Made by a program: the position numbers and the translations under genes. The notes beneath the pieces are model-generated. The model did no database searches. It saw only the letters and a program-made list of their open reading frames with translations, and was not told where the DNA came from. A stretch of DNA of 26,344 nt, taken from the NCBI GenBank assembly GCA_046542505.1, contig JBKHBH010000025.1, positions 1 through 26,344 on the forward strand. Reading direction: 5' to 3'. This DNA is from Thermovirgaceae bacterium (GTDB taxonomy: Bacteria; Synergistota; Synergistia; Synergistales; Thermovirgaceae). Shown piece by piece: positions 10,289 to 17,467 of the stretch (its first letter is position 1; each line of letters starts with the position of its first letter).

Positions 10289-11264
10289 AGAGGCCGGAGT
10301 GGACCTTGCCGGAGCTGCATCCTGGATCCAGATAATACGCCGGCACACTTCCGCCATTCAGCACCCGAACGTCGTCGGCGGTCTGGGCGGTTTCGCCGGG
10401 CTTTACAGAATCTCCGAGGGGCTGCTCCTCGCCGCTTGCGCAGACGGCGTGGGAACGAAAATCGAGGTTGCGCGTCTTGCGAATTCTTATGAATCGCTCG
10501 GCGTCGACCTGGTGGCCATGAACGTGAACGACCTCATTACCTGCGGAGCGAGCCCGCTTTTCTTTCTGGATTATATTGCCTGCGGTTCACTGGACACGGC
10601 GCGCCTGGAGCCGATTTTCAAAGGGATAGTACAGGCATGCAAAAAGATAAATTGCGCCCTTTTGGGCGGGGAAACGGCTGAGATGCCCGATATCTACGAA
10701 ACGGGAGGAATTGATCTTGCAGGCTTCGCCGTCGGCGCTGTTGGAGAAAAACAACTTGTCACCGGTGAAAAGATTGACCAGGGAGACAAGATTATCGGAC
10801 TGAGAAGCTCCGGGATACACAGCAACGGATTCAGCCTTGTCCGCAAAGTGCTTTTGGGGTCACGACATTCTGAAGCACTTGACGAATTCGTTCCGCAGTT
10901 CGGAGAAAAACTGTCCACCGCTCTTCTTTGTCCCACCCGCCTTTATGTCAAACAGGCCCTCGAGGTTCACGAAAAGATACCCGTTTCCGGGATGGCACAC
11001 ATTACCGGTGGCGGCCTCGAGGAAAACATCTTGCGCGTTCTGCCGAAAGGTCTTTCATGCAGCCTGGATTTCGATGCATGGACACGTCCTGAAATCTTCA
11101 ATTACATTGCTTCAAGAGGCGTTTCGGAGAAAGAAATGAGAAAGGTCTTCAATCTGGGGATAGGATTTGTGTTCATCCTCCCGGCGGAAAGAAGTGACGA
11201 AGCCTGCCGGATTCTCGAAAAAACGGGAGAAGAACCCGTTCTGATAGGTGAAGTTACAAAATGA
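10272..11264 (+). CDS. purM: AIR synthase (phosphoribosylformylglycinamidine cyclo-ligase)
   Basis: TYKEAGVD, DGVGTK, AMNVND, PLFFLDY, GGETAEMP, SSGIHSNGFSL, AHITGGG, FNLGIG. Start ATG 10272 after GGGAGG. Confidence 0.96.
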   Translation: MRWTYKEAGVDLAGAASWIQIIRRHTSAIQHPNVVGGLGGFAGLYRISEGLLLAACADGVGTKIEVARLANSYESLGVDLVAMNVNDLITCGASPLFFLDYIACGSLDTARLEPIFKGIVQACKKINCALLGGETAEMPDIYETGGIDLAGFAVGAVGEKQLVTGEKIDQGDKIIGLRSSGIHSNGFSLVRKVLLGSRHSEALDEFVPQFGEKLSTALLCPTRLYVKQALEVHEKIPVSGMAHITGGGLEENILRVLPKGLSCSLDFDAWTRPEIFNYIASRGVSEKEMRKVFNLGIGFVFILPAERSDEACRILEKTGEEPVLIGEVTK

Positions 11265-13418: not shown

Positions 13419-14693
13419 ATGCGTTTTCTTCTTCTCGGAAAAGGTGCACGTGAACATGCGATCGCGTGGGCGTTGGCCAGATCATCCTTTGTTGACGAGA
13501 TCCATAGCATGCCCGGGAACGTGGGCATTGGGCAGATAGCCGAAACTCATGCAGGAGACCCGGAAGACGTTACGTCCGTATGCCGTCTTTGCGAACACCT
13601 TGCCGCCGATATTGTCATTGTAGGGCCTGAGGCGCCCCTGGTCGCCGGAATCGCCGATGCGCTTGCCGATAAAGGCATCCCGACCTTCGGCCCCCGGTCA
13701 GCCGGTGCGAAGCTTGAAGGAAGCAAGGCTTTCGCAAAGGAATTTATGGCGCGTCATAAAATCCCGACGGCTGGATTCGACATTTGCCGTAACATGGAAG
13801 AAGCAAAAGGAGCTCTCCAAAAACGGCATGCCCCGTACATCGTCAAGGCTCACGGACTTGCGGCAGGAAAGGGAGTCTTTGTCCTCAAGACAAAAAATGA
13901 AGCACTTGAAGTCAGCCGGCAGTTGCTGGAGGAGAACCTGCTGAAAGAAGCCGGAAGAACGATTGTCATAGAGGACTATTTGCCCGGGAAGGAACTGACA
14001 GTTCTCGTGATTACCGACGGCGACTCCTGGAAGATACTCCCGCCCAGCCAGGACCACAAACGTGTCTTCGACGGGGACGCGGGGCCCAACACGGGCGGCA
14101 TGGGTGCATTCTGCCCGGTCCCTTCGATCACCGAAGATCTTCTTGCAGACGTTGAGGCAAAAGTCGTTTCCCCGACCATTCAGGGCCTTGCATCGGAGGG
14201 AATACCATTTACGGGTGTTCTTTACTTCGGACTGATGATAAGCGAAAATGGTATATTCCGGGTCCTTGAATACAATGTCCGCATGGGGGACCCCGAGACG
14301 CAGGTGGTTCTCCCCGTCTTCCCGGGGGATTTCGCTGAAGCCGCCTACGCGGCGTGTAACGGGGACCTTACGAACGTTTCCTGGAGGTCTACCGGCGATT
14401 CCGCCGTTGGCATCGTTATGGCCTCCGGCGGCTACCCTGGCAAATATTCGAAAGGTTTTGAAATCAGGGGAATTGATTCATTGCCTTTTGACAACAAGAC
14501 TCTCATTTTCCACGCAGGTACCCGCAAATCTGATGGAAGACTCGTTACAGACGGAGGCAGGGTCCTTACCGTCGTAGGAGTCGGCGGCGGAATTGGGGAT
14601 GCCCGCAGGCGGGCATATGGTGCCGCTGAAAGGATTTCTTTCGAAAAGGCGCACTATCGCAGGGATATAGCGTCTTTCGCACAGGGAGAGTGA
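13419..14693 (+). CDS. purD: phosphoribosylamine-glycine ligase
   Basis: GAREHAIAW, VGPEAPL, LEGSKAFAK, GLAAGKGV, QDHKR..DGDAGPNTGGMG, EYNVRMGDPETQ, GGRVL. Confidence 0.97.
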   Translation: MRFLLLGKGAREHAIAWALARSSFVDEIHSMPGNVGIGQIAETHAGDPEDVTSVCRLCEHLAADIVIVGPEAPLVAGIADALADKGIPTFGPRSAGAKLEGSKAFAKEFMARHKIPTAGFDICRNMEEAKGALQKRHAPYIVKAHGLAAGKGVFVLKTKNEALEVSRQLLEENLLKEAGRTIVIEDYLPGKELTVLVITDGDSWKILPPSQDHKRVFDGDAGPNTGGMGAFCPVPSITEDLLADVEAKVVSPTIQGLASEGIPFTGVLYFGLMISENGIFRVLEYNVRMGDPETQVVLPVFPGDFAEAAYAACNGDLTNVSWRSTGDSAVGIVMASGGYPGKYSKGFEIRGIDSLPFDNKTLIFHAGTRKSDGRLVTDGGRVLTVVGVGGGIGDARRRAYGAAERISFEKAHYRRDIASFAQGE

Positions 14694-14698
14694 AAATC

Positions 14699-15226
14699 AT
14701 GGACAAACATCCACAGATCGGCATTGTCATGGGATCCCAGTCTGATATGGACATAGCAAGAAAAGCCCTAAAGACTCTTGAGGATCTGGATATCGGGGCC
14801 GAGGTCACCATCGCTTCGGCACACCGGACGCCGGAAGACTCGGTTTCTTACGCAGAAAACGCGCGTTCGAGGGGTATCGTCGCCATTATCGCTATTGCCG
14901 GACTTTCAGCCGCTCTGCCGGGCGTCGTTGCGGCTCACACAACCCTCCCCGTTATCGGCGTTCCGGTAAATACCGGAACCCTTGGAGGAATGGACGCACT
15001 TCTTTCAATTGCCCAGATGCCGCCCGGCGTTCCCGTAGCAGCAACAGGGATAGACGGCGCGAAAAATGCGGCACTCCTGGCAGCAAGGATCATTGCTCTA
15101 CAGGATCCTTCCCTTCATGAAAGACTTTGTGAAGCCGTTTTCCGCGGCGGGCAGAAGGTCAGGGCTTCCAGGGCATCAATTTCGGACATGCCCGCCGCAC
15201 CTGAAGACGCTTTTTCAAGGGAGTGA
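14699..15226 (+). CDS. purE: PurE (AIR carboxylase/N5-CAIR mutase family)
   Basis: MGSQSD, SAHRTP, LPVIGVPV, DALLSIAQMPPGVPVA, NAALLA. ATG 14699 is 9 nt after GGGAGA; alternative start GTG 14690. Confidence 0.95.
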   Translation: MDKHPQIGIVMGSQSDMDIARKALKTLEDLDIGAEVTIASAHRTPEDSVSYAENARSRGIVAIIAIAGLSAALPGVVAAHTTLPVIGVPVNTGTLGGMDALLSIAQMPPGVPVAATGIDGAKNAALLAARIIALQDPSLHERLCEAVFRGGQKVRASRASISDMPAAPEDAFSRE

Positions 15227-15232
15227 TTCGGC

Positions 15233-16192
15233 ATTTATTCCTCCGGACCGCGAAGATATCTTCCCTGGTCCGTCCTTCTAAGAAAACGTTGGGGAAAACG
15301 TGTCCAGAAGATTTCTCTTGATATAGGTGCAGGCTGCCCTCACAGGAACAGTCTGAAAGAAGGCGGGTGCGTTTTTTGCGACAGCTTTGGAGGCGGGAGC
15401 GGAGCATACCTTTCAGGCATTACCCTGGAAGATCAAATACTTCGCGGTTTCAAACGCATCAAGGGAAGATACAACACTGATGAGGCCATTCTCTATTTTC
15501 AAAGTTACTCCACCACGAACCTTCCTGTCGGGAACCTGGTCGACATCATCGAAAGGGCCTTCGCCTTTTCAACGACTCTCGGCCATATAGCCGGCCTTGC
15601 CATTGGAGCACGCCCAGACCAGGTTCCCGGCGAACTTCTCTCTTTTCTTGAGAAACTCGCAGAAAGAGATATTGAAGTCTGGCTTGAGCTGGGAGTCCAA
15701 ACGACTGATCCGGCGGGCCTTCAATGGCTCAACAGGGGCCACGGGCTGCACGAGGTCGAAAACGCCATTGAAAGAAGCCTGAGCTGCCGGGGGCTTTCCC
15801 TGTGTGCCCATCTCATTGCAGGCATCCCCGGGGAAAAAGACGACCAGCTTTCCCGTTCCGCCGAGTGGCTTTCCGAAAGGGGGATCCACGGCGTCAAGTT
15901 TCATCCGCTCTATGTTCTTGCGGGGACAACCCTGGAAAGGCTTTTCCGGCAAGGTTGTTTCGTCCCTCTGGCTCGAAAGGAATACGTGATAAAAGTCGTT
16001 GAAGCCTTGAGGAGGCTTCGTCCCGACGTGGCCATACAGCGGCTGACTGCTGACGCGTCCTTTCCGAGACTGGTTGCTCCTGAATGGGTGGCCCGAAAGC
16101 AGACCGTCATCAAGGAAGTCGAGGGGCTTCTCAATCAACTCGATGCCTGTCAGGGCGACCGCTGGCGCGAAAGATCCGTCCCTGGCCAGTGA
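15233..16192 (+). CDS. TIGR01212/YhcC(YtqA)-family radical SAM protein with a non-canonical (probably ATT) start
   Basis: Hand translation shows no stop from 15227 to 16192: RYLPWSVLLRKRWGKRVQKISLDIGAGCPHRNSLKEGGCVFCD (Cx10Cx2C), YFQSYSTT, IGARPD, WLELGVQT, NRGH, CAHLIAGIPGE, GVKFHPLYV, IQRLTAD, LVAPEW. The ORF track shows only 15986-16192. Family call is strong; the start site is uncertain. Confidence 0.88.
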   Translation: MYSSGPRRYLPWSVLLRKRWGKRVQKISLDIGAGCPHRNSLKEGGCVFCDSFGGGSGAYLSGITLEDQILRGFKRIKGRYNTDEAILYFQSYSTTNLPVGNLVDIIERAFAFSTTLGHIAGLAIGARPDQVPGELLSFLEKLAERDIEVWLELGVQTTDPAGLQWLNRGHGLHEVENAIERSLSCRGLSLCAHLIAGIPGEKDDQLSRSAEWLSERGIHGVKFHPLYVLAGTTLERLFRQGCFVPLARKEYVIKVVEALRRLRPDVAIQRLTADASFPRLVAPEWVARKQTVIKEVEGLLNQLDACQGDRWRERSVPGQ

Positions 16193-16211
16193 AGTGCGTT
16201 TCCAGGGCGTT

Positions 16212-16436
16212 TCACTTTCCGCGTTGCGTGCCAAGGTACCCGAGAAACAGGAGAATCGGGGAAAAAAGGAATTTACCAGGGCCGGAAAAAAACTGGCGGA
16301 CCGGTTCAATATGATAGAGAAACTTCATGAAAATCGCTAGCGAAACGCAAATGAACAAAAGTGTCGTAAGAGGCGAACGCTGTTTGTCGTCGCTCGAAGG
16401 CTCTTTTTTCCCGGGCAAATCTGTCACCTCATTCAT
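16212..16436 (-). CDS. small hypothetical membrane protein (74 aa)
   Basis: Fills the gap after the dehydratase gene; SD-like GGTGAT before ATG; polar N-terminus then hydrophobic stretches LTTLLFICVSLAIFMKFLY and FLFSPILLFLGYLG. Confidence 0.5.
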   Translation of the reverse strand: MNEVTDLPGKKEPSSDDKQRSPLTTLLFICVSLAIFMKFLYHIEPVRQFFSGPGKFLFSPILLFLGYLGTQRGK

Positions 16437-16489
16437 CAGATCACCAAAAGCAGGCCAGGTTTTTCTTGAAATCCTAGGAGCACCTGCGT

Positions 16490-17467
16490 TCAGCTGATGC
16501 CTAGGATACGAAGCAACTGGTCTTCATCAATATTCCCACCGGAAACCACCACACCGGTCTTTTTGCCCCCGGTGACGAATTTCCCCGACAACAGAGCCGC
16601 CACTCCCGTGGCCCCCGCACCTTCAACAACCTGGTGGTGTTCCCTGTGCAAAAAGGATATTGCCGACGCTATTTCTTCTTCATCAACTTCGACAAGTCCC
16701 GCCAGATTCTCTCTGAGGTAACTAAAAAGTACCGGCGAGGCCGCTCCTGAAAGAGCGTCCGCCAGAGTCTTTTCCTCTTCCACGGGTTCCACGAAACCCT
16801 TTTCCCAGGCATTTCGCCAGGAGGGATTCGCTTTCGCATATACGCCCCATACTTCTATTCCACGCCGTAGAGCTTTTGCGGCCACTGTCACGCCTGTGAT
16901 GAGGCCTCCACCGCTGATGGGAACAAGGATGACATCGAGGTCGGGATGTACCTCCAGCAACTCGAAACCGACCGTTCCCTGGCCTGCGATGATATGAAGG
17001 TCCTCGTAAGCGGAAACGTACACCATTTCGACTTCGTGGCACAGTCTTTTCGCTTCCGTCTCCGCCTCATCATAGAATTTCCCGATGACTTTCAGTTCCA
17101 CGTATTCGCCGCCGAGTTTCTGTATAGCCCGTTTCTTGTTTTCGGGACAGGAACCGGGCACACAAATCACCGCTTTCACGCCCAGCATCGATGCAGCTGT
17201 AGCGACGCCCTGGGCATGGTTTCCCGACGAAGCGGTCACTACACCACGTTTTCGTTCCTCCGGCGAAAGTGAGAACATCTTGTTCAAGGCACCTCGTATC
17301 TTGAATGCGCCACATACCTGGAGGTTTTCCCATTTCAGAACCACCGGCCCGATTGTTTTCTCAAAGAGAGCTTCAGAAAGATCTGTCGGAGTCTTTCTGA
17401 CTCTTGTTTTCAGAAATTCTTTCGCGAACAGGATGTCTTCCATTTCCGGTACGGTGGTTTCGTACAT
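16490..17467 (-). CDS. PLP-dependent threonine/serine dehydratase family protein (no ACT domain)
   Basis: LKWENLQVCGAFKIRGA (PLP Lys), ASSGNHAQG, IAGQGTVG, PISGGGL, VEGAGA, VSGGNID; SD GGGGAGAG. Confidence 0.88.
   Translation of the reverse strand: MYETTVPEMEDILFAKEFLKTRVRKTPTDLSEALFEKTIGPVVLKWENLQVCGAFKIRGALNKMFSLSPEERKRGVVTASSGNHAQGVATAASMLGVKAVICVPGSCPENKKRAIQKLGGEYVELKVIGKFYDEAETEAKRLCHEVEMVYVSAYEDLHIIAGQGTVGFELLEVHPDLDVILVPISGGGLITGVTVAAKALRRGIEVWGVYAKANPSWRNAWEKGFVEPVEEEKTLADALSGAASPVLFSYLRENLAGLVEVDEEEIASAISFLHREHHQVVEGAGATGVAALLSGKFVTGGKKTGVVVSGGNIDEDQLLRILGIS

What the first reader, a model, noticed from the sequence alone, without database searches (positions are those of the whole stretch)
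15218..16192. Hidden, intact radical SAM gene with no canonical start: candidate AUU initiation
Seen: a stop-free frame from 15227 to 16192 carries the TIGR01212 motifs, including CPHRNSLKEGGCVFC, but its first in-frame GTG/TTG/ATG is at 15986, far past the Fe-S motif. An in-frame ATT at 15233 lies 9 nt after AGGGAG (15218-15223), the same spacing as for purE, and 7 codons before the family's N-terminal RY..L...G.RVQKISLD segment, giving 319 aa. Known: AUU starts are rare and used to restrict or regulate expression (E. coli infC via IF3, pcnB). Inference: a low-level or IF3-sensitive gene that standard callers would miss or truncate. Alternatives: an ATG>ATT mutation or sequencing error at 15235, or a +1 shift from the GTG at 15223, whose own frame stops at 15321.
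Basis: partly seen in the sequence, partly recalled or inferred. Interest (0 to 1): 0.8.

Follow-up and report, generated by a model that had tools for sequence, protein, structure and literature searches.

The report
tRNA-modifying gene that starts at ATT
An intact gene for a tRNA-modifying radical SAM enzyme sits right after purE with no normal start codon, and relatives indicate that it begins at a conserved ATT codon, a rare but known way for bacteria to start a protein.

Summary
After the purE stop (TGA 15224-15226) the same frame stays open to 16192. It encodes a full MnmL/YtqA radical SAM protein (TIGR01212, 238.9 bits, cut-off 180). It has no in-frame ATG, GTG or TTG before 15986.

The ATT at 15233 lies 9 nt after AGGGAG, the usual spacing in this genome. 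Five distinct sequences that form one clade of this Thermovirgaceae genus all keep the same ATT, while the codons around it vary. Their genes are under purifying selection (dN/dS 0.12-0.18, dS up to 1.75).

All 23 readable orthologs outside that clade have a canonical start 6-16 codons before the conserved Trp; the ATT lies 11 codons before it. Assembled contigs from two studies, including a strain variant, keep the ATT without indels. In all six genomes of the genus infC starts at ATA with the same spacing.

Public gene calls truncate this gene. The record behind this window starts it at ATA 15323, which removes a confidently predicted helix and strand.

Verdict: a real, conserved AUU-initiated gene, probably translationally coupled to purE. 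Low expression and sensitivity to initiation factor IF3 are inferred, not shown. It is a new member of a known kind, of moderate interest.

The parts
14690..15226 (+). purE, the next-to-last gene of the pur operon. The ORF is listed from GTG 14690; ATG 14699, 10 nt after GGGAG, is the likelier start.
   Evidence: TIGR01162 at 1.6e-54 and PF00731 at 1e-57. Junction sequence.
15218..15223 (+). Shine-Dalgarno-like AGGGAG inside the last purE codons, 9 nt before the ATT.
   Evidence: Sequence. Identical in 5 of 5 ATT-clade sequences. The GGAG-to-start spacing in this genome peaks at 8-10 nt.
15224..15226 (+). purE stop codon TGA, in frame with mnmL and 6 nt before the ATT.
   Evidence: Other genera of the family have TAG or TAA at the homologous purE end.
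15233..15235 (+). Proposed AUU initiation codon of mnmL.
   Evidence: It is the only near-cognate codon between the purE stop and the conserved RYLPWS segment. It is conserved in 5 of 5 clade members, 11 codons before the conserved Trp. It is unchanged in the contigs of two studies and in a strain variant.
15233..16192 (+). mnmL/ytqA-type radical SAM gene, 319 codons plus stop.
   Evidence: TIGR01212 at 238.9 bits against a cut-off of 180; PF04055 and PF16199. ORF with ATT start. AlphaFold2 model with pLDDT 93.7. dN/dS 0.12-0.18.
15335..15379 (+). Cysteine motif (residues C35, C46 and C49 counted from the ATT), presumed to bind the radical SAM Fe-S cluster.
   Evidence: The three Cys are invariant in the 58-sequence alignment. 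Their role as cluster ligands is inferred from the family.
15323..15325 (+). ATA used as the start in the public gene call on this contig (289-aa product). Probably a wrong call.
   Evidence: P0003 is 289 aa, is 100% identical and begins MGAGCPH. This start would remove helix 12-20 and strand 24-29, which have block pLDDT of 96-97. No GGAG lies upstream of it.
15986..15988 (+). First in-frame canonical start (GTG), 251 codons after the ATT. It would give only a 68-aa C-terminal piece.

Best explanation
Positions 15233-16192 encode a functional MnmL/YtqA-type radical SAM enzyme. In B. subtilis and E. coli this family converts cmnm5(s2)U to nm5(s2)U at the tRNA wobble position. Translation starts at the AUU codon at 15233. 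A ribosome is placed there by the purine-rich AAGGGAGUGAU stretch formed by the last purE codons and the purE stop. It is either a ribosome that has just terminated purE 6 nt upstream (termination-reinitiation) or one recruited afresh. Because AUU is a poor start that initiation factor IF3 discriminates against, the gene is probably made at a low level, tied to purE translation and sensitive to IF3 activity.

Shown here:
- the gene is intact and under selection;
- no canonical start is available;
- the ATT is conserved at a spacing from the Shine-Dalgarno motif that is typical for this genome;
- infC in the same genus also uses an AUH-type start.

Inferred, not shown: that AUU really is the initiation codon, the reinitiation route, the low expression level and the dependence on IF3.
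For: 1. The gene is intact. It scores 238.9 bits on TIGR01212 (cut-off 180) and also matches PF04055 and PF16199. The AlphaFold2 model has mean pLDDT 93.7 and pTM 0.91.

2. It is under selection. The six pairs among the four ATT-bearing genome orthologs give dN/dS 0.117-0.178 at dS 0.41-1.75.

3. The window has no in-frame ATG/GTG/TTG before codon 254 of the open frame. L004, L005 and L055 have none between the purE stop and the conserved Trp.

4. The ATT is the third codon after the purE TGA in 5 of 5 distinct sequences (window, L004, L005, L006, L055), while the two codons before it and those after it differ. These five form one clade with support 99/96.

5. The segment after the ATT must be translated. 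R8, Y9, L10, W12, S13 and L16 are invariant in the six sequences of the genus. S13 and L16 are at least 90% conserved in 58 sequences. Helix 12-20 and strand 24-29 are confidently modelled.

6. All 23 readable genome orthologs outside the clade, and 10 of 10 metagenome loci examined, have a canonical start 6-16 codons before the conserved Trp. The ATT lies 11 codons before it. In genus g7 (L013, L015) a TTG lies exactly 9 nt after the same AGGGAG.

7. In 224 genes of this genome with an unambiguous start, GGAG was found upstream in 63. The spacing was 7-11 nt in 51 of those 63 and exactly 9 nt in 11.

8. Contigs of two studies carry the ATT without indels. One of them is a strain variant with 10 differences in 190 nt, none of them in the ATT.

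9. Control within the genus: infC has GGAGGTG(A/T)-N6-ATA in 6 of 6 genomes. In G003 and G004 the downstream GTG is replaced by ATC, which leaves ATA as the start.

10. Literature. E. coli infC starts at AUU 3 nt after the thrS stop, and AUU gave 6-8 times less product than AUG or GUG (PMC3592434, passages). AUU or AUC in infC is the target of IF3 autoregulation (PMC5499595, section 23).
Against: - There is no direct evidence of translation or of the N-terminus. No RNA run, proteome or ribosome-profiling data could be consulted.
- The five ATT sequences descend from one ancestor. This is one origin that was retained, not five independent events.
- Retention of an identical codon is weak evidence by itself. 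Among columns where the four genome orthologs share an amino acid, 54 of 188 also share the codon, and 5 of 9 conserved Ile columns do.
- L006 (G002) also has an in-frame GTG four codons after the ATT, which could serve as the start in that species.
- The purE stop is in frame with mnmL in all five, so low-level UGA readthrough cannot be excluded as a second source of protein.
- Only assembled contigs were laid on the region, not raw reads, and one of the runs may be the window's own source sample.
Confidence: 0.75

Rival explanations
1. Initiation occurs further downstream. Candidates are the ATA at 15323 chosen by the public annotation, or the Leu codon that is TTG in relatives. The result would be an N-terminally shortened enzyme.
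For: The public call on this contig starts at ATA 15323 (P0003, 289 aa). The calls on relatives start at GTG or TTG within 'WSVLLRKRWG' (P0004-P0008).
Against: A start at ATA 15323 would delete helix 12-20 and strand 24-29, which have block pLDDT of 96-97. It would also delete residues that are invariant in the genus and at least 90% conserved in 58 sequences. No GGAG precedes it. The TTG of relatives is CTA in the window, CTG in the strain variant and CTG in L006, so it is ordinary synonymous variation of a conserved Leu. The RYLPWS segment upstream of these sites is conserved at the protein level, with synonymous changes.
Confidence: 0.07
2. MnmL is made mainly by readthrough of the purE UGA, as a PurE-MnmL fusion, and the ATT is only an Ile codon in the linker.
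For: The purE stop is in frame with mnmL in 5 of 5 ATT-clade sequences, and the stop is always TGA.
Against: In the sister lineage (G003, G004) purE ends at the same place but out of frame with mnmL. Other genera have TAG or TAA there, followed by their own TTG or GTG. None of the 95 homologs at E <= 1e-60 carries the PurE domain PF00731. The base after the stop is T in 4 of 5 sequences; that this is an efficient termination context in E. coli is recalled, not tested. The linker and the first residues after the ATT vary freely while the ATT and the Shine-Dalgarno motif do not.
Confidence: 0.05
3. Translation starts at the GTG at 15223, which overlaps the purE stop as GTGA, and reaches the mnmL frame by a programmed +1 frameshift. 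Alternatively, the assembly carries a one-base error.
For: In G003 and G004 the homologous GTG(A) is in frame with mnmL and is the public start call (P0011, P0012). The ATT clade differs from them by one base in length.
Against: The same frame relation holds in five different sequences from separate assemblies. The contigs of two studies show no indel. Between the GTG and the RY codons nothing is conserved in the GTG frame, and no slippery or stop-stimulated site is shared. The frame of the ATT, by contrast, shows a conserved Ile and Ser with a synonymous TCC/TCA change. The GTG abuts the Shine-Dalgarno motif with zero spacing.
Confidence: 0.03
4. The gene is a start-loss pseudogene, or is effectively silent.
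For: There is no canonical start, and no expression data exist.
Against: dN/dS is 0.12-0.18 over dS of 0.4-1.75 since the ATT arose, and all five copies have full-length open frames. MnmE and MnmG, which make the substrate, are present (362 and 811 bits). No MnmC-type alternative was found above the cut-off in this 93.5%-complete genome.
Confidence: 0.05

Closest known systems
E. coli infC (IF3), with an AUU start just after thrS
   Same: An AUU initiation codon lies a few bases after the stop of the upstream gene. In E. coli the junction is UAA GGU AUU (PMC3592434); here it is UGA UUC GGC AUU. The Shine-Dalgarno motif sits in the end of the upstream gene. The AUH start is conserved among relatives.
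   Different: The product is not IF3, so there is no autoregulatory loop; any sensitivity to IF3 would be passive. The conservation is limited to one clade of one genus, whereas unusual infC starts are widespread. That wider distribution is recalled, and here it was seen only as ATA in 6 of 6 genomes of the genus.
E. coli pcnB (poly(A) polymerase I), with an AUU start
   Same: A non-IF3 gene for an RNA-acting enzyme whose AUU start is thought to keep expression low. This is recalled; pcnB appears only in the search listing.
   Different: A different enzyme and a different lineage. The gene here is the last cistron of a biosynthetic operon and sits 6 nt from the preceding stop.
MnmL/YtqA (B. 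subtilis, S. mutans) and YhcC (E. coli), TIGR01212
   Same: The same protein family by curated HMM, with three invariant Cys and the Radical_SAM_C domain. This is probably the same reaction, demodification of cmnm5s2U to nm5s2U (abstracts of 10.1101/2023.12.21.572861 and 10.64898/2026.05.18.725915).
   Different: In B. subtilis mnmL shares an operon with mnmM (abstract). Here it follows purE, and no MnmM (PF06962) was found in the 93.5%-complete genome. The start codon is ATT.
infC of the same genus, with an AUA start
   Same: The same organisms and the same geometry: GGAGGTGA-N6-ATA against GGGAGTGA-N6-ATT. The near-cognate AUH codon is conserved, and in two genomes no canonical alternative exists.
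   Different: The infC start is kept in all six genomes of the genus. The mnmL ATT is kept in only four of them (plus one metagenome contig); the other two have GTG or TTG.

Membership tests
TIGR01212 (MnmL/YtqA tRNA-modification radical SAM) | Score above the curated cut-off of the equivalog HMM over nearly its full length | tested here: met
   238.9 bits against a cut-off of 180, over profile positions 6-300 of 302.
TIGR01212 (MnmL/YtqA tRNA-modification radical SAM) | Radical SAM core with three conserved cysteines, plus the Radical_SAM_C domain | tested here: met
   PF04055 at 41.9 bits and PF16199 at 78.1 bits. C35, C46 and C49 are invariant in 58 sequences.
TIGR01212 (MnmL/YtqA tRNA-modification radical SAM) | Catalyses the conversion of cmnm5s2U to nm5s2U on tRNA | not testable with these tools
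   Known for B. subtilis MnmL and E. coli YhcC (abstracts). Here there is only context: MnmE and MnmG are present.
Bacterial genes initiated at AUU (infC/pcnB type) | No canonical start codon is available upstream of the conserved N-terminal part of the protein | tested here: met
   There is none in the window, L004, L005 or L055. L006 has an extra GTG.
Bacterial genes initiated at AUU (infC/pcnB type) | AUU at a functional distance from a Shine-Dalgarno sequence | tested here: met
   AGGGAG, then 9 nt, then ATT. The genome's spacing peaks at 8-10 nt.
Bacterial genes initiated at AUU (infC/pcnB type) | The unusual start codon is conserved among orthologs | tested here: met
   5 of 5 sequences of the clade, from a single origin.
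Bacterial genes initiated at AUU (infC/pcnB type) | Initiation at AUU shown by an N-terminal sequence, toeprinting or ribosome profiling | not testable with these tools
   No RNA holder was listed, and no proteome or ribosome-profiling data were available.
Bacterial genes initiated at AUU (infC/pcnB type) | Expression responds to the IF3 level | not testable with these tools
   Inferred from E. coli work (PMC5499595, section 23; PMC2268962, abstract).

The most novel reading that the evidence does not exclude
The AUU start is not just a tolerated weak start but a regulatory device. It would place the last cistron of the purine operon, a wobble-U34 tRNA-modification enzyme, under control of IF3 activity and growth state, in parallel with the AUA-initiated infC of the same genus. 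The level of tRNA modification would then follow translation-initiation status and purine supply. The unusually low number of in-frame ATG/GTG/TTG codons in the gene would reflect selection against competing internal starts.
Probability: 0.15. Interest if true: 0.6.

Novelty: new member of a known kind. Interest (0 to 1): 0.38.

Why it matters
Conserved AUU starts outside infC are few, so each well-supported case helps define where bacteria tolerate or exploit near-cognate initiation.

This case also has a practical side. All seven closest public gene calls for this clade are truncated at the N-terminus. The record behind this window loses a structural helix and a strand. Family-aware start calling that allows ATT would fix these calls.

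If the weak start is regulatory, it would link purine-operon translation and IF3 status to a tRNA wobble modification in anaerobic Synergistota. That link is untested.

Tried and rejected
- **Sequestering hairpin around the Shine-Dalgarno motif or the start.** The window's 81-nt fold pairs GGGAGUGA with UUAUUCCU (z -1.58, with 12 of 200 shuffles folding as well). The five 41-nt folds give z of -0.27, 0.76, 0.00, 0.37 and -1.83. The consensus fold is weak (-4.56 kcal/mol) and 0 of its 8 pairs covary. Not supported.
- **Expression data.** No RNA holder was listed for the stretch. This says nothing about expression.
- **First metagenome scan with the single protein.** 174 pattern matches, none a relative. 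The second scan, with the alignment, gave 15 loci.
- **Codon-usage coding score to separate real from shadow frames.** It discriminated too weakly to use.
- **Search for other long genes without a canonical start in this genome.** 427 stop-to-stop frames had at least 80 codons before a canonical start. I took the 20 least covered by canonical ORFs in other frames, leaving out mnmL itself, which ranked 4th. Only 2 of the 20 had Pfam hits, and in both the domains begin after the first canonical start. This is therefore not a genome-wide artefact. The scan cannot see short startless leaders such as that of infC.
- **Promoter and terminator scan of 14600-16600.** No terminator-like site, and one promoter-like site on the minus strand, which is no more than in the shuffles.
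- **Solved structures.** Only distant Elp3 matches, best E-value 9.7e-10. No structure of the family itself was found by sequence.
- **Earlier notes of this scan.** Nothing on this place or on these words. Two notes on another piece of the genome concern other genes.
- **An earlier reading of mine, corrected.** I first took the f8 loci (L028, L030) to have the same stop-to-start geometry with ATG. One search shows about 100-125 nt between the purE match and the mnmL match there. Their TGA is therefore part of a GAGGTGA Shine-Dalgarno motif and not the purE stop.
Full report
**1. Observation**

- purE ends with AGG GAG TGA, with the TGA at 15224-15226.
- The same frame continues without a stop to the TGA at 16190-16192.
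- The only canonical-start ORF in that frame is the 68-aa piece from GTG 15986. One search counts 253 codons before the first ATG/GTG/TTG.
- ATT 15233 is the third codon after the stop and lies 9 nt after AGGGAG (15218-15223).
- With table-11 start codons the ORF is 15233..16192, 319 aa.
- The frame of the GTG at 15223 ends at 15321.

**2. What the gene is**

The frame scores 238.9 bits on the equivalog model TIGR01212, 'tRNA modification radical SAM protein MnmL/YtqA' (cut-off 180), over profile positions 6-300 of 302. It also matches PF04055 and PF16199.

An AlphaFold2 model built on a 58-sequence alignment has mean pLDDT 93.7 and pTM 0.91. C35, C46 and C49, counted from the ATT, are invariant in that alignment.

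The gene is the last one of a pur operon, in the order purC, purQ, purL, purF, purM, purN, purH, purD, purE, mnmL. A threonine-dehydratase-like gene converges on it from downstream.

purE lies directly upstream on the same strand in 25 of 28 orthologous loci of the order. The script's tally says 23 because it left out two loci whose matches overlap by 1-4 nt. Three loci have no purE within 1.5 kb.

The genome is a 2.14-Mb assembly in 142 contigs, 93.5% complete. A relative of the same genus carries the title 'Thermovirgaceae bacterium'.

According to two preprints, of which I saw only the abstracts, MnmL and YhcC remove the carboxymethyl group of cmnm5s2U to give nm5s2U, and in E. coli this route is needed anaerobically. 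MnmE (362 bits) and MnmG (811 bits) are present here. Nothing reached the MnmC cut-off (best 39.8 bits against 174.2). PF05430 and the MnmM family PF06962 gave no match, in a genome that is 93.5% complete.

**3. Where translation starts: comparative evidence**

I searched 41 genomes (G000 plus 40 relatives) and read the 5' region of the 27 orthologous loci fetched from the relatives, together with the window's own locus.

- Three species of the same genus (G005, G001 and G002; 72-78% protein identity) have the same junction: AGGGAG, TGA, two variable codons, then ATT.
- A metagenome contig (L055) adds a fifth, distinct sequence with the same ATT. L054 and L056 repeat the junctions of L005 and L006.
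- In a maximum-likelihood tree of 27 proteins, the five ATT sequences form one clade (support 99/96), sister to G003 and G004. The ATT therefore arose once and has been kept since.
- Purifying selection has continued since then. The six pairs of genome orthologs give dN/dS 0.117-0.178 at dS 0.41-1.75, and all copies are open over their full length.
- The window, L004, L005 and L055 have no canonical start between the purE stop and the conserved Trp. L006 has a GTG four codons after the ATT.
- Outside the clade, 23 of 23 readable genome loci have a canonical start 6-16 codons before that Trp. L027 was left out because it holds an unreadable stretch and lacks the motif. Ten of 10 metagenome loci examined show the same. 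L062, L065 and L069 were not put through that script.
- The ATT lies 11 codons before the Trp. In genus g7 a TTG lies exactly 9 nt after the same AGGGAG.
- The sister lineage (G003, G004) reads GGAG TGA TA TTG. This gives a GTG that overlaps the stop and a TTG 5 nt after the GGAG, both in frame with mnmL. It is one base shorter than the ATT clade.

**4. The residues after the ATT are translated**

- R8, Y9, L10, W12, S13 and L16 are invariant in the six sequences of the genus.
- S13 and L16 are at least 90% conserved in the 58 sequences.
- The RYLPWS codons differ synonymously among species.
- The model places a helix at residues 12-20 and the first strand at 24-29, with block pLDDT of 96-97. 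Only residues 1-10 are uncertain.

Between the stop and R8, the ATT is the only codon one base away from ATG.

**5. Sequence errors**

Contigs of four public runs were laid on 14900-15700. These were assembled contigs, not raw reads, and the best holder may be the window's own source sample.

- In run X1, one contig matches 15121-15310 exactly. A second is a strain variant with 10 differences, including 15237 A>T, 15250 G>A, 15273 T>C and 15280 A>G. None of them falls in 15233-15235.
- In run X2, from another study, a contig covers 15228-15623 without any difference.
- No insertion or deletion was reported in any run.

Together with the four other sequences from separate assemblies, this rules out a local assembly error.

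**6. Controls within the genome**

- Of 224 genes with an unambiguous start, 63 have GGAG within 20 nt upstream. The spacing is 7-11 nt in 51 of them and exactly 9 nt in 11. The ATT therefore sits at the preferred distance.
- infC of this genome has GGAGGTGA, six bases, then ATA. The same ATA is present in 6 of 6 genomes of the genus. In G003 and G004 the only nearby GTG is replaced by ATC, which leaves ATA as the start. The lineage thus demonstrably keeps an AUH-type start with the same geometry.
- A scan for other long frames without a start found no second case among the 20 best candidates.

**7. Public gene calls**

The seven closest proteins in the large collection (at least 71% identity) all start downstream of the ATT.

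- The call on this very contig is 289 aa and begins MGAGCPH, that is, at ATA 15323.
- Five others begin at a GTG or TTG inside WSVLLRKRWG.
- One begins at the GTG four codons after the ATT.

The gene is therefore annotated, but it is cut short. The call on this contig removes the helix and the first strand.

**8. Rival explanations**

- *Readthrough of the in-frame purE UGA* cannot be excluded as a minor source of protein. It does not explain the conserved ATT and spacing. The homologous stop is TAG or TAA in other genera, and in G003 and G004 the purE stop is out of frame with mnmL. None of the 95 homologs at E <= 1e-60 carries a PurE domain.
- *A +1 frameshift from GTG 15223* lacks any shared shift site, and the GTG frame is not conserved.
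- *A pseudogene* is contradicted by the dN/dS values.
- *Downstream starts* would delete conserved, structured residues.

**9. Mechanism**

The most likely picture is initiation at AUU 15233. The ribosome would be positioned by the purine-rich stretch that ends purE. That AAGGGAGUGAU resembles the extended anti-Shine-Dalgarno complement is my own reading, based on the generally conserved 3' end of 16S rRNA. I did not check it against this genome's 16S rRNA.

Both reinitiation after purE termination and fresh initiation would contribute. For the E. coli thrS-infC type junction UAA GGU AUU, a reporter study attributed about equal shares to the two routes. The same study found AUU and UUG six to eight times weaker than AUG and GUG (PMC3592434, passages).

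IF3 discriminates against AUU or AUC in infC (PMC5499595, abstract and section 23). Overproduction of IF3 lowers reinitiation (PMC2268962, abstract).

Low, IF3-sensitive expression coupled to purE is therefore a reasonable inference. It was not tested here.

**10. Novelty**

AUU initiation is a known, rare mechanism. Here it appears in a new gene family and lineage, and it is retained over substantial divergence. My three literature searches turned up nothing on the start codon of mnmL, ytqA or yhcC and no conserved AUU start beyond the classic cases. They were not exhaustive. I rate this a new member of a known kind, of moderate interest, with practical value for annotation.

Noticed in passing
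G000 contig C7, about 10484-10510, minus strand (L033); also L070-L074: infC of this genus has no canonical start at its N-terminus. GGAGGTG(A/T) CGG ACA ATA is conserved in 6 of 6 genomes, and in two of them the nearby GTG is ATC. infC therefore probably starts at AUA.
   Followed up: yes
window 15323-15325: The public gene call on this contig (P0003, 289 aa) starts mnmL at ATA 15323. That is 30 codons too far downstream by the family profile, the conservation and the structure model.
   Followed up: yes
window 15233-16192: The protein contains no methionine. The gene has only 4 in-frame ATG/GTG/TTG codons, against 17.6 expected from this genome's long genes. Orthologs in the genus have 5-10. 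This could be a property of the family or selection against internal starts; I did not resolve which.
   Followed up: partly
window 14684-14701: The purD-purE junction has the same architecture: GGGAG, the purD stop TGA inside GTGA, then ATG 14699 ten bases after GGGAG. The mechanical ORF list starts purE at GTG 14690, but ATG 14699 looks the likelier start.
   Followed up: partly
window 14690-16192 and loci L004-L030: purE lies directly upstream of mnmL in 25 of 28 loci across the order. This is a conserved linkage of a purine-synthesis gene with a tRNA-modification radical SAM gene, and it has no evident functional reason.
   Followed up: partly
whole genome G000: MnmE, MnmG and MnmL are present. 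No MnmC reached its cut-off and no MnmM (PF06962) or PF05430 methylase matched, in a 93.5%-complete genome. The final methylation step to mnm5 may be missing or may be done by an unknown enzyme.
   Followed up: partly
window 15121-15310: Run X1 holds a second contig with 10 differences in 190 nt (depth 3.5 against 6.4). This is a co-occurring strain variant. In the mnmL frame the changes at 15250 and 15280 are synonymous, while those at 15237 (Y to F) and 15273 (V to A) change the residue.
   Followed up: partly
L028 (G034), L030 (G025); proteins P0081-P0083: Some relatives in the same order have much longer open frames (605 and 507 aa). Three homologs of 456-459 aa carry GNAT acetyltransferase domains after the radical SAM part, an Elp3-like domain order.
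   Followed up: no
L030 and L028, upstream of mnmL: In family f8 a G+C-rich hairpin, followed in L030 by a run of T, separates purE from mnmL. mnmL there has its own GAGGTGA-N6-ATG. Coupling to purE is therefore not universal in the order.
   Followed up: no
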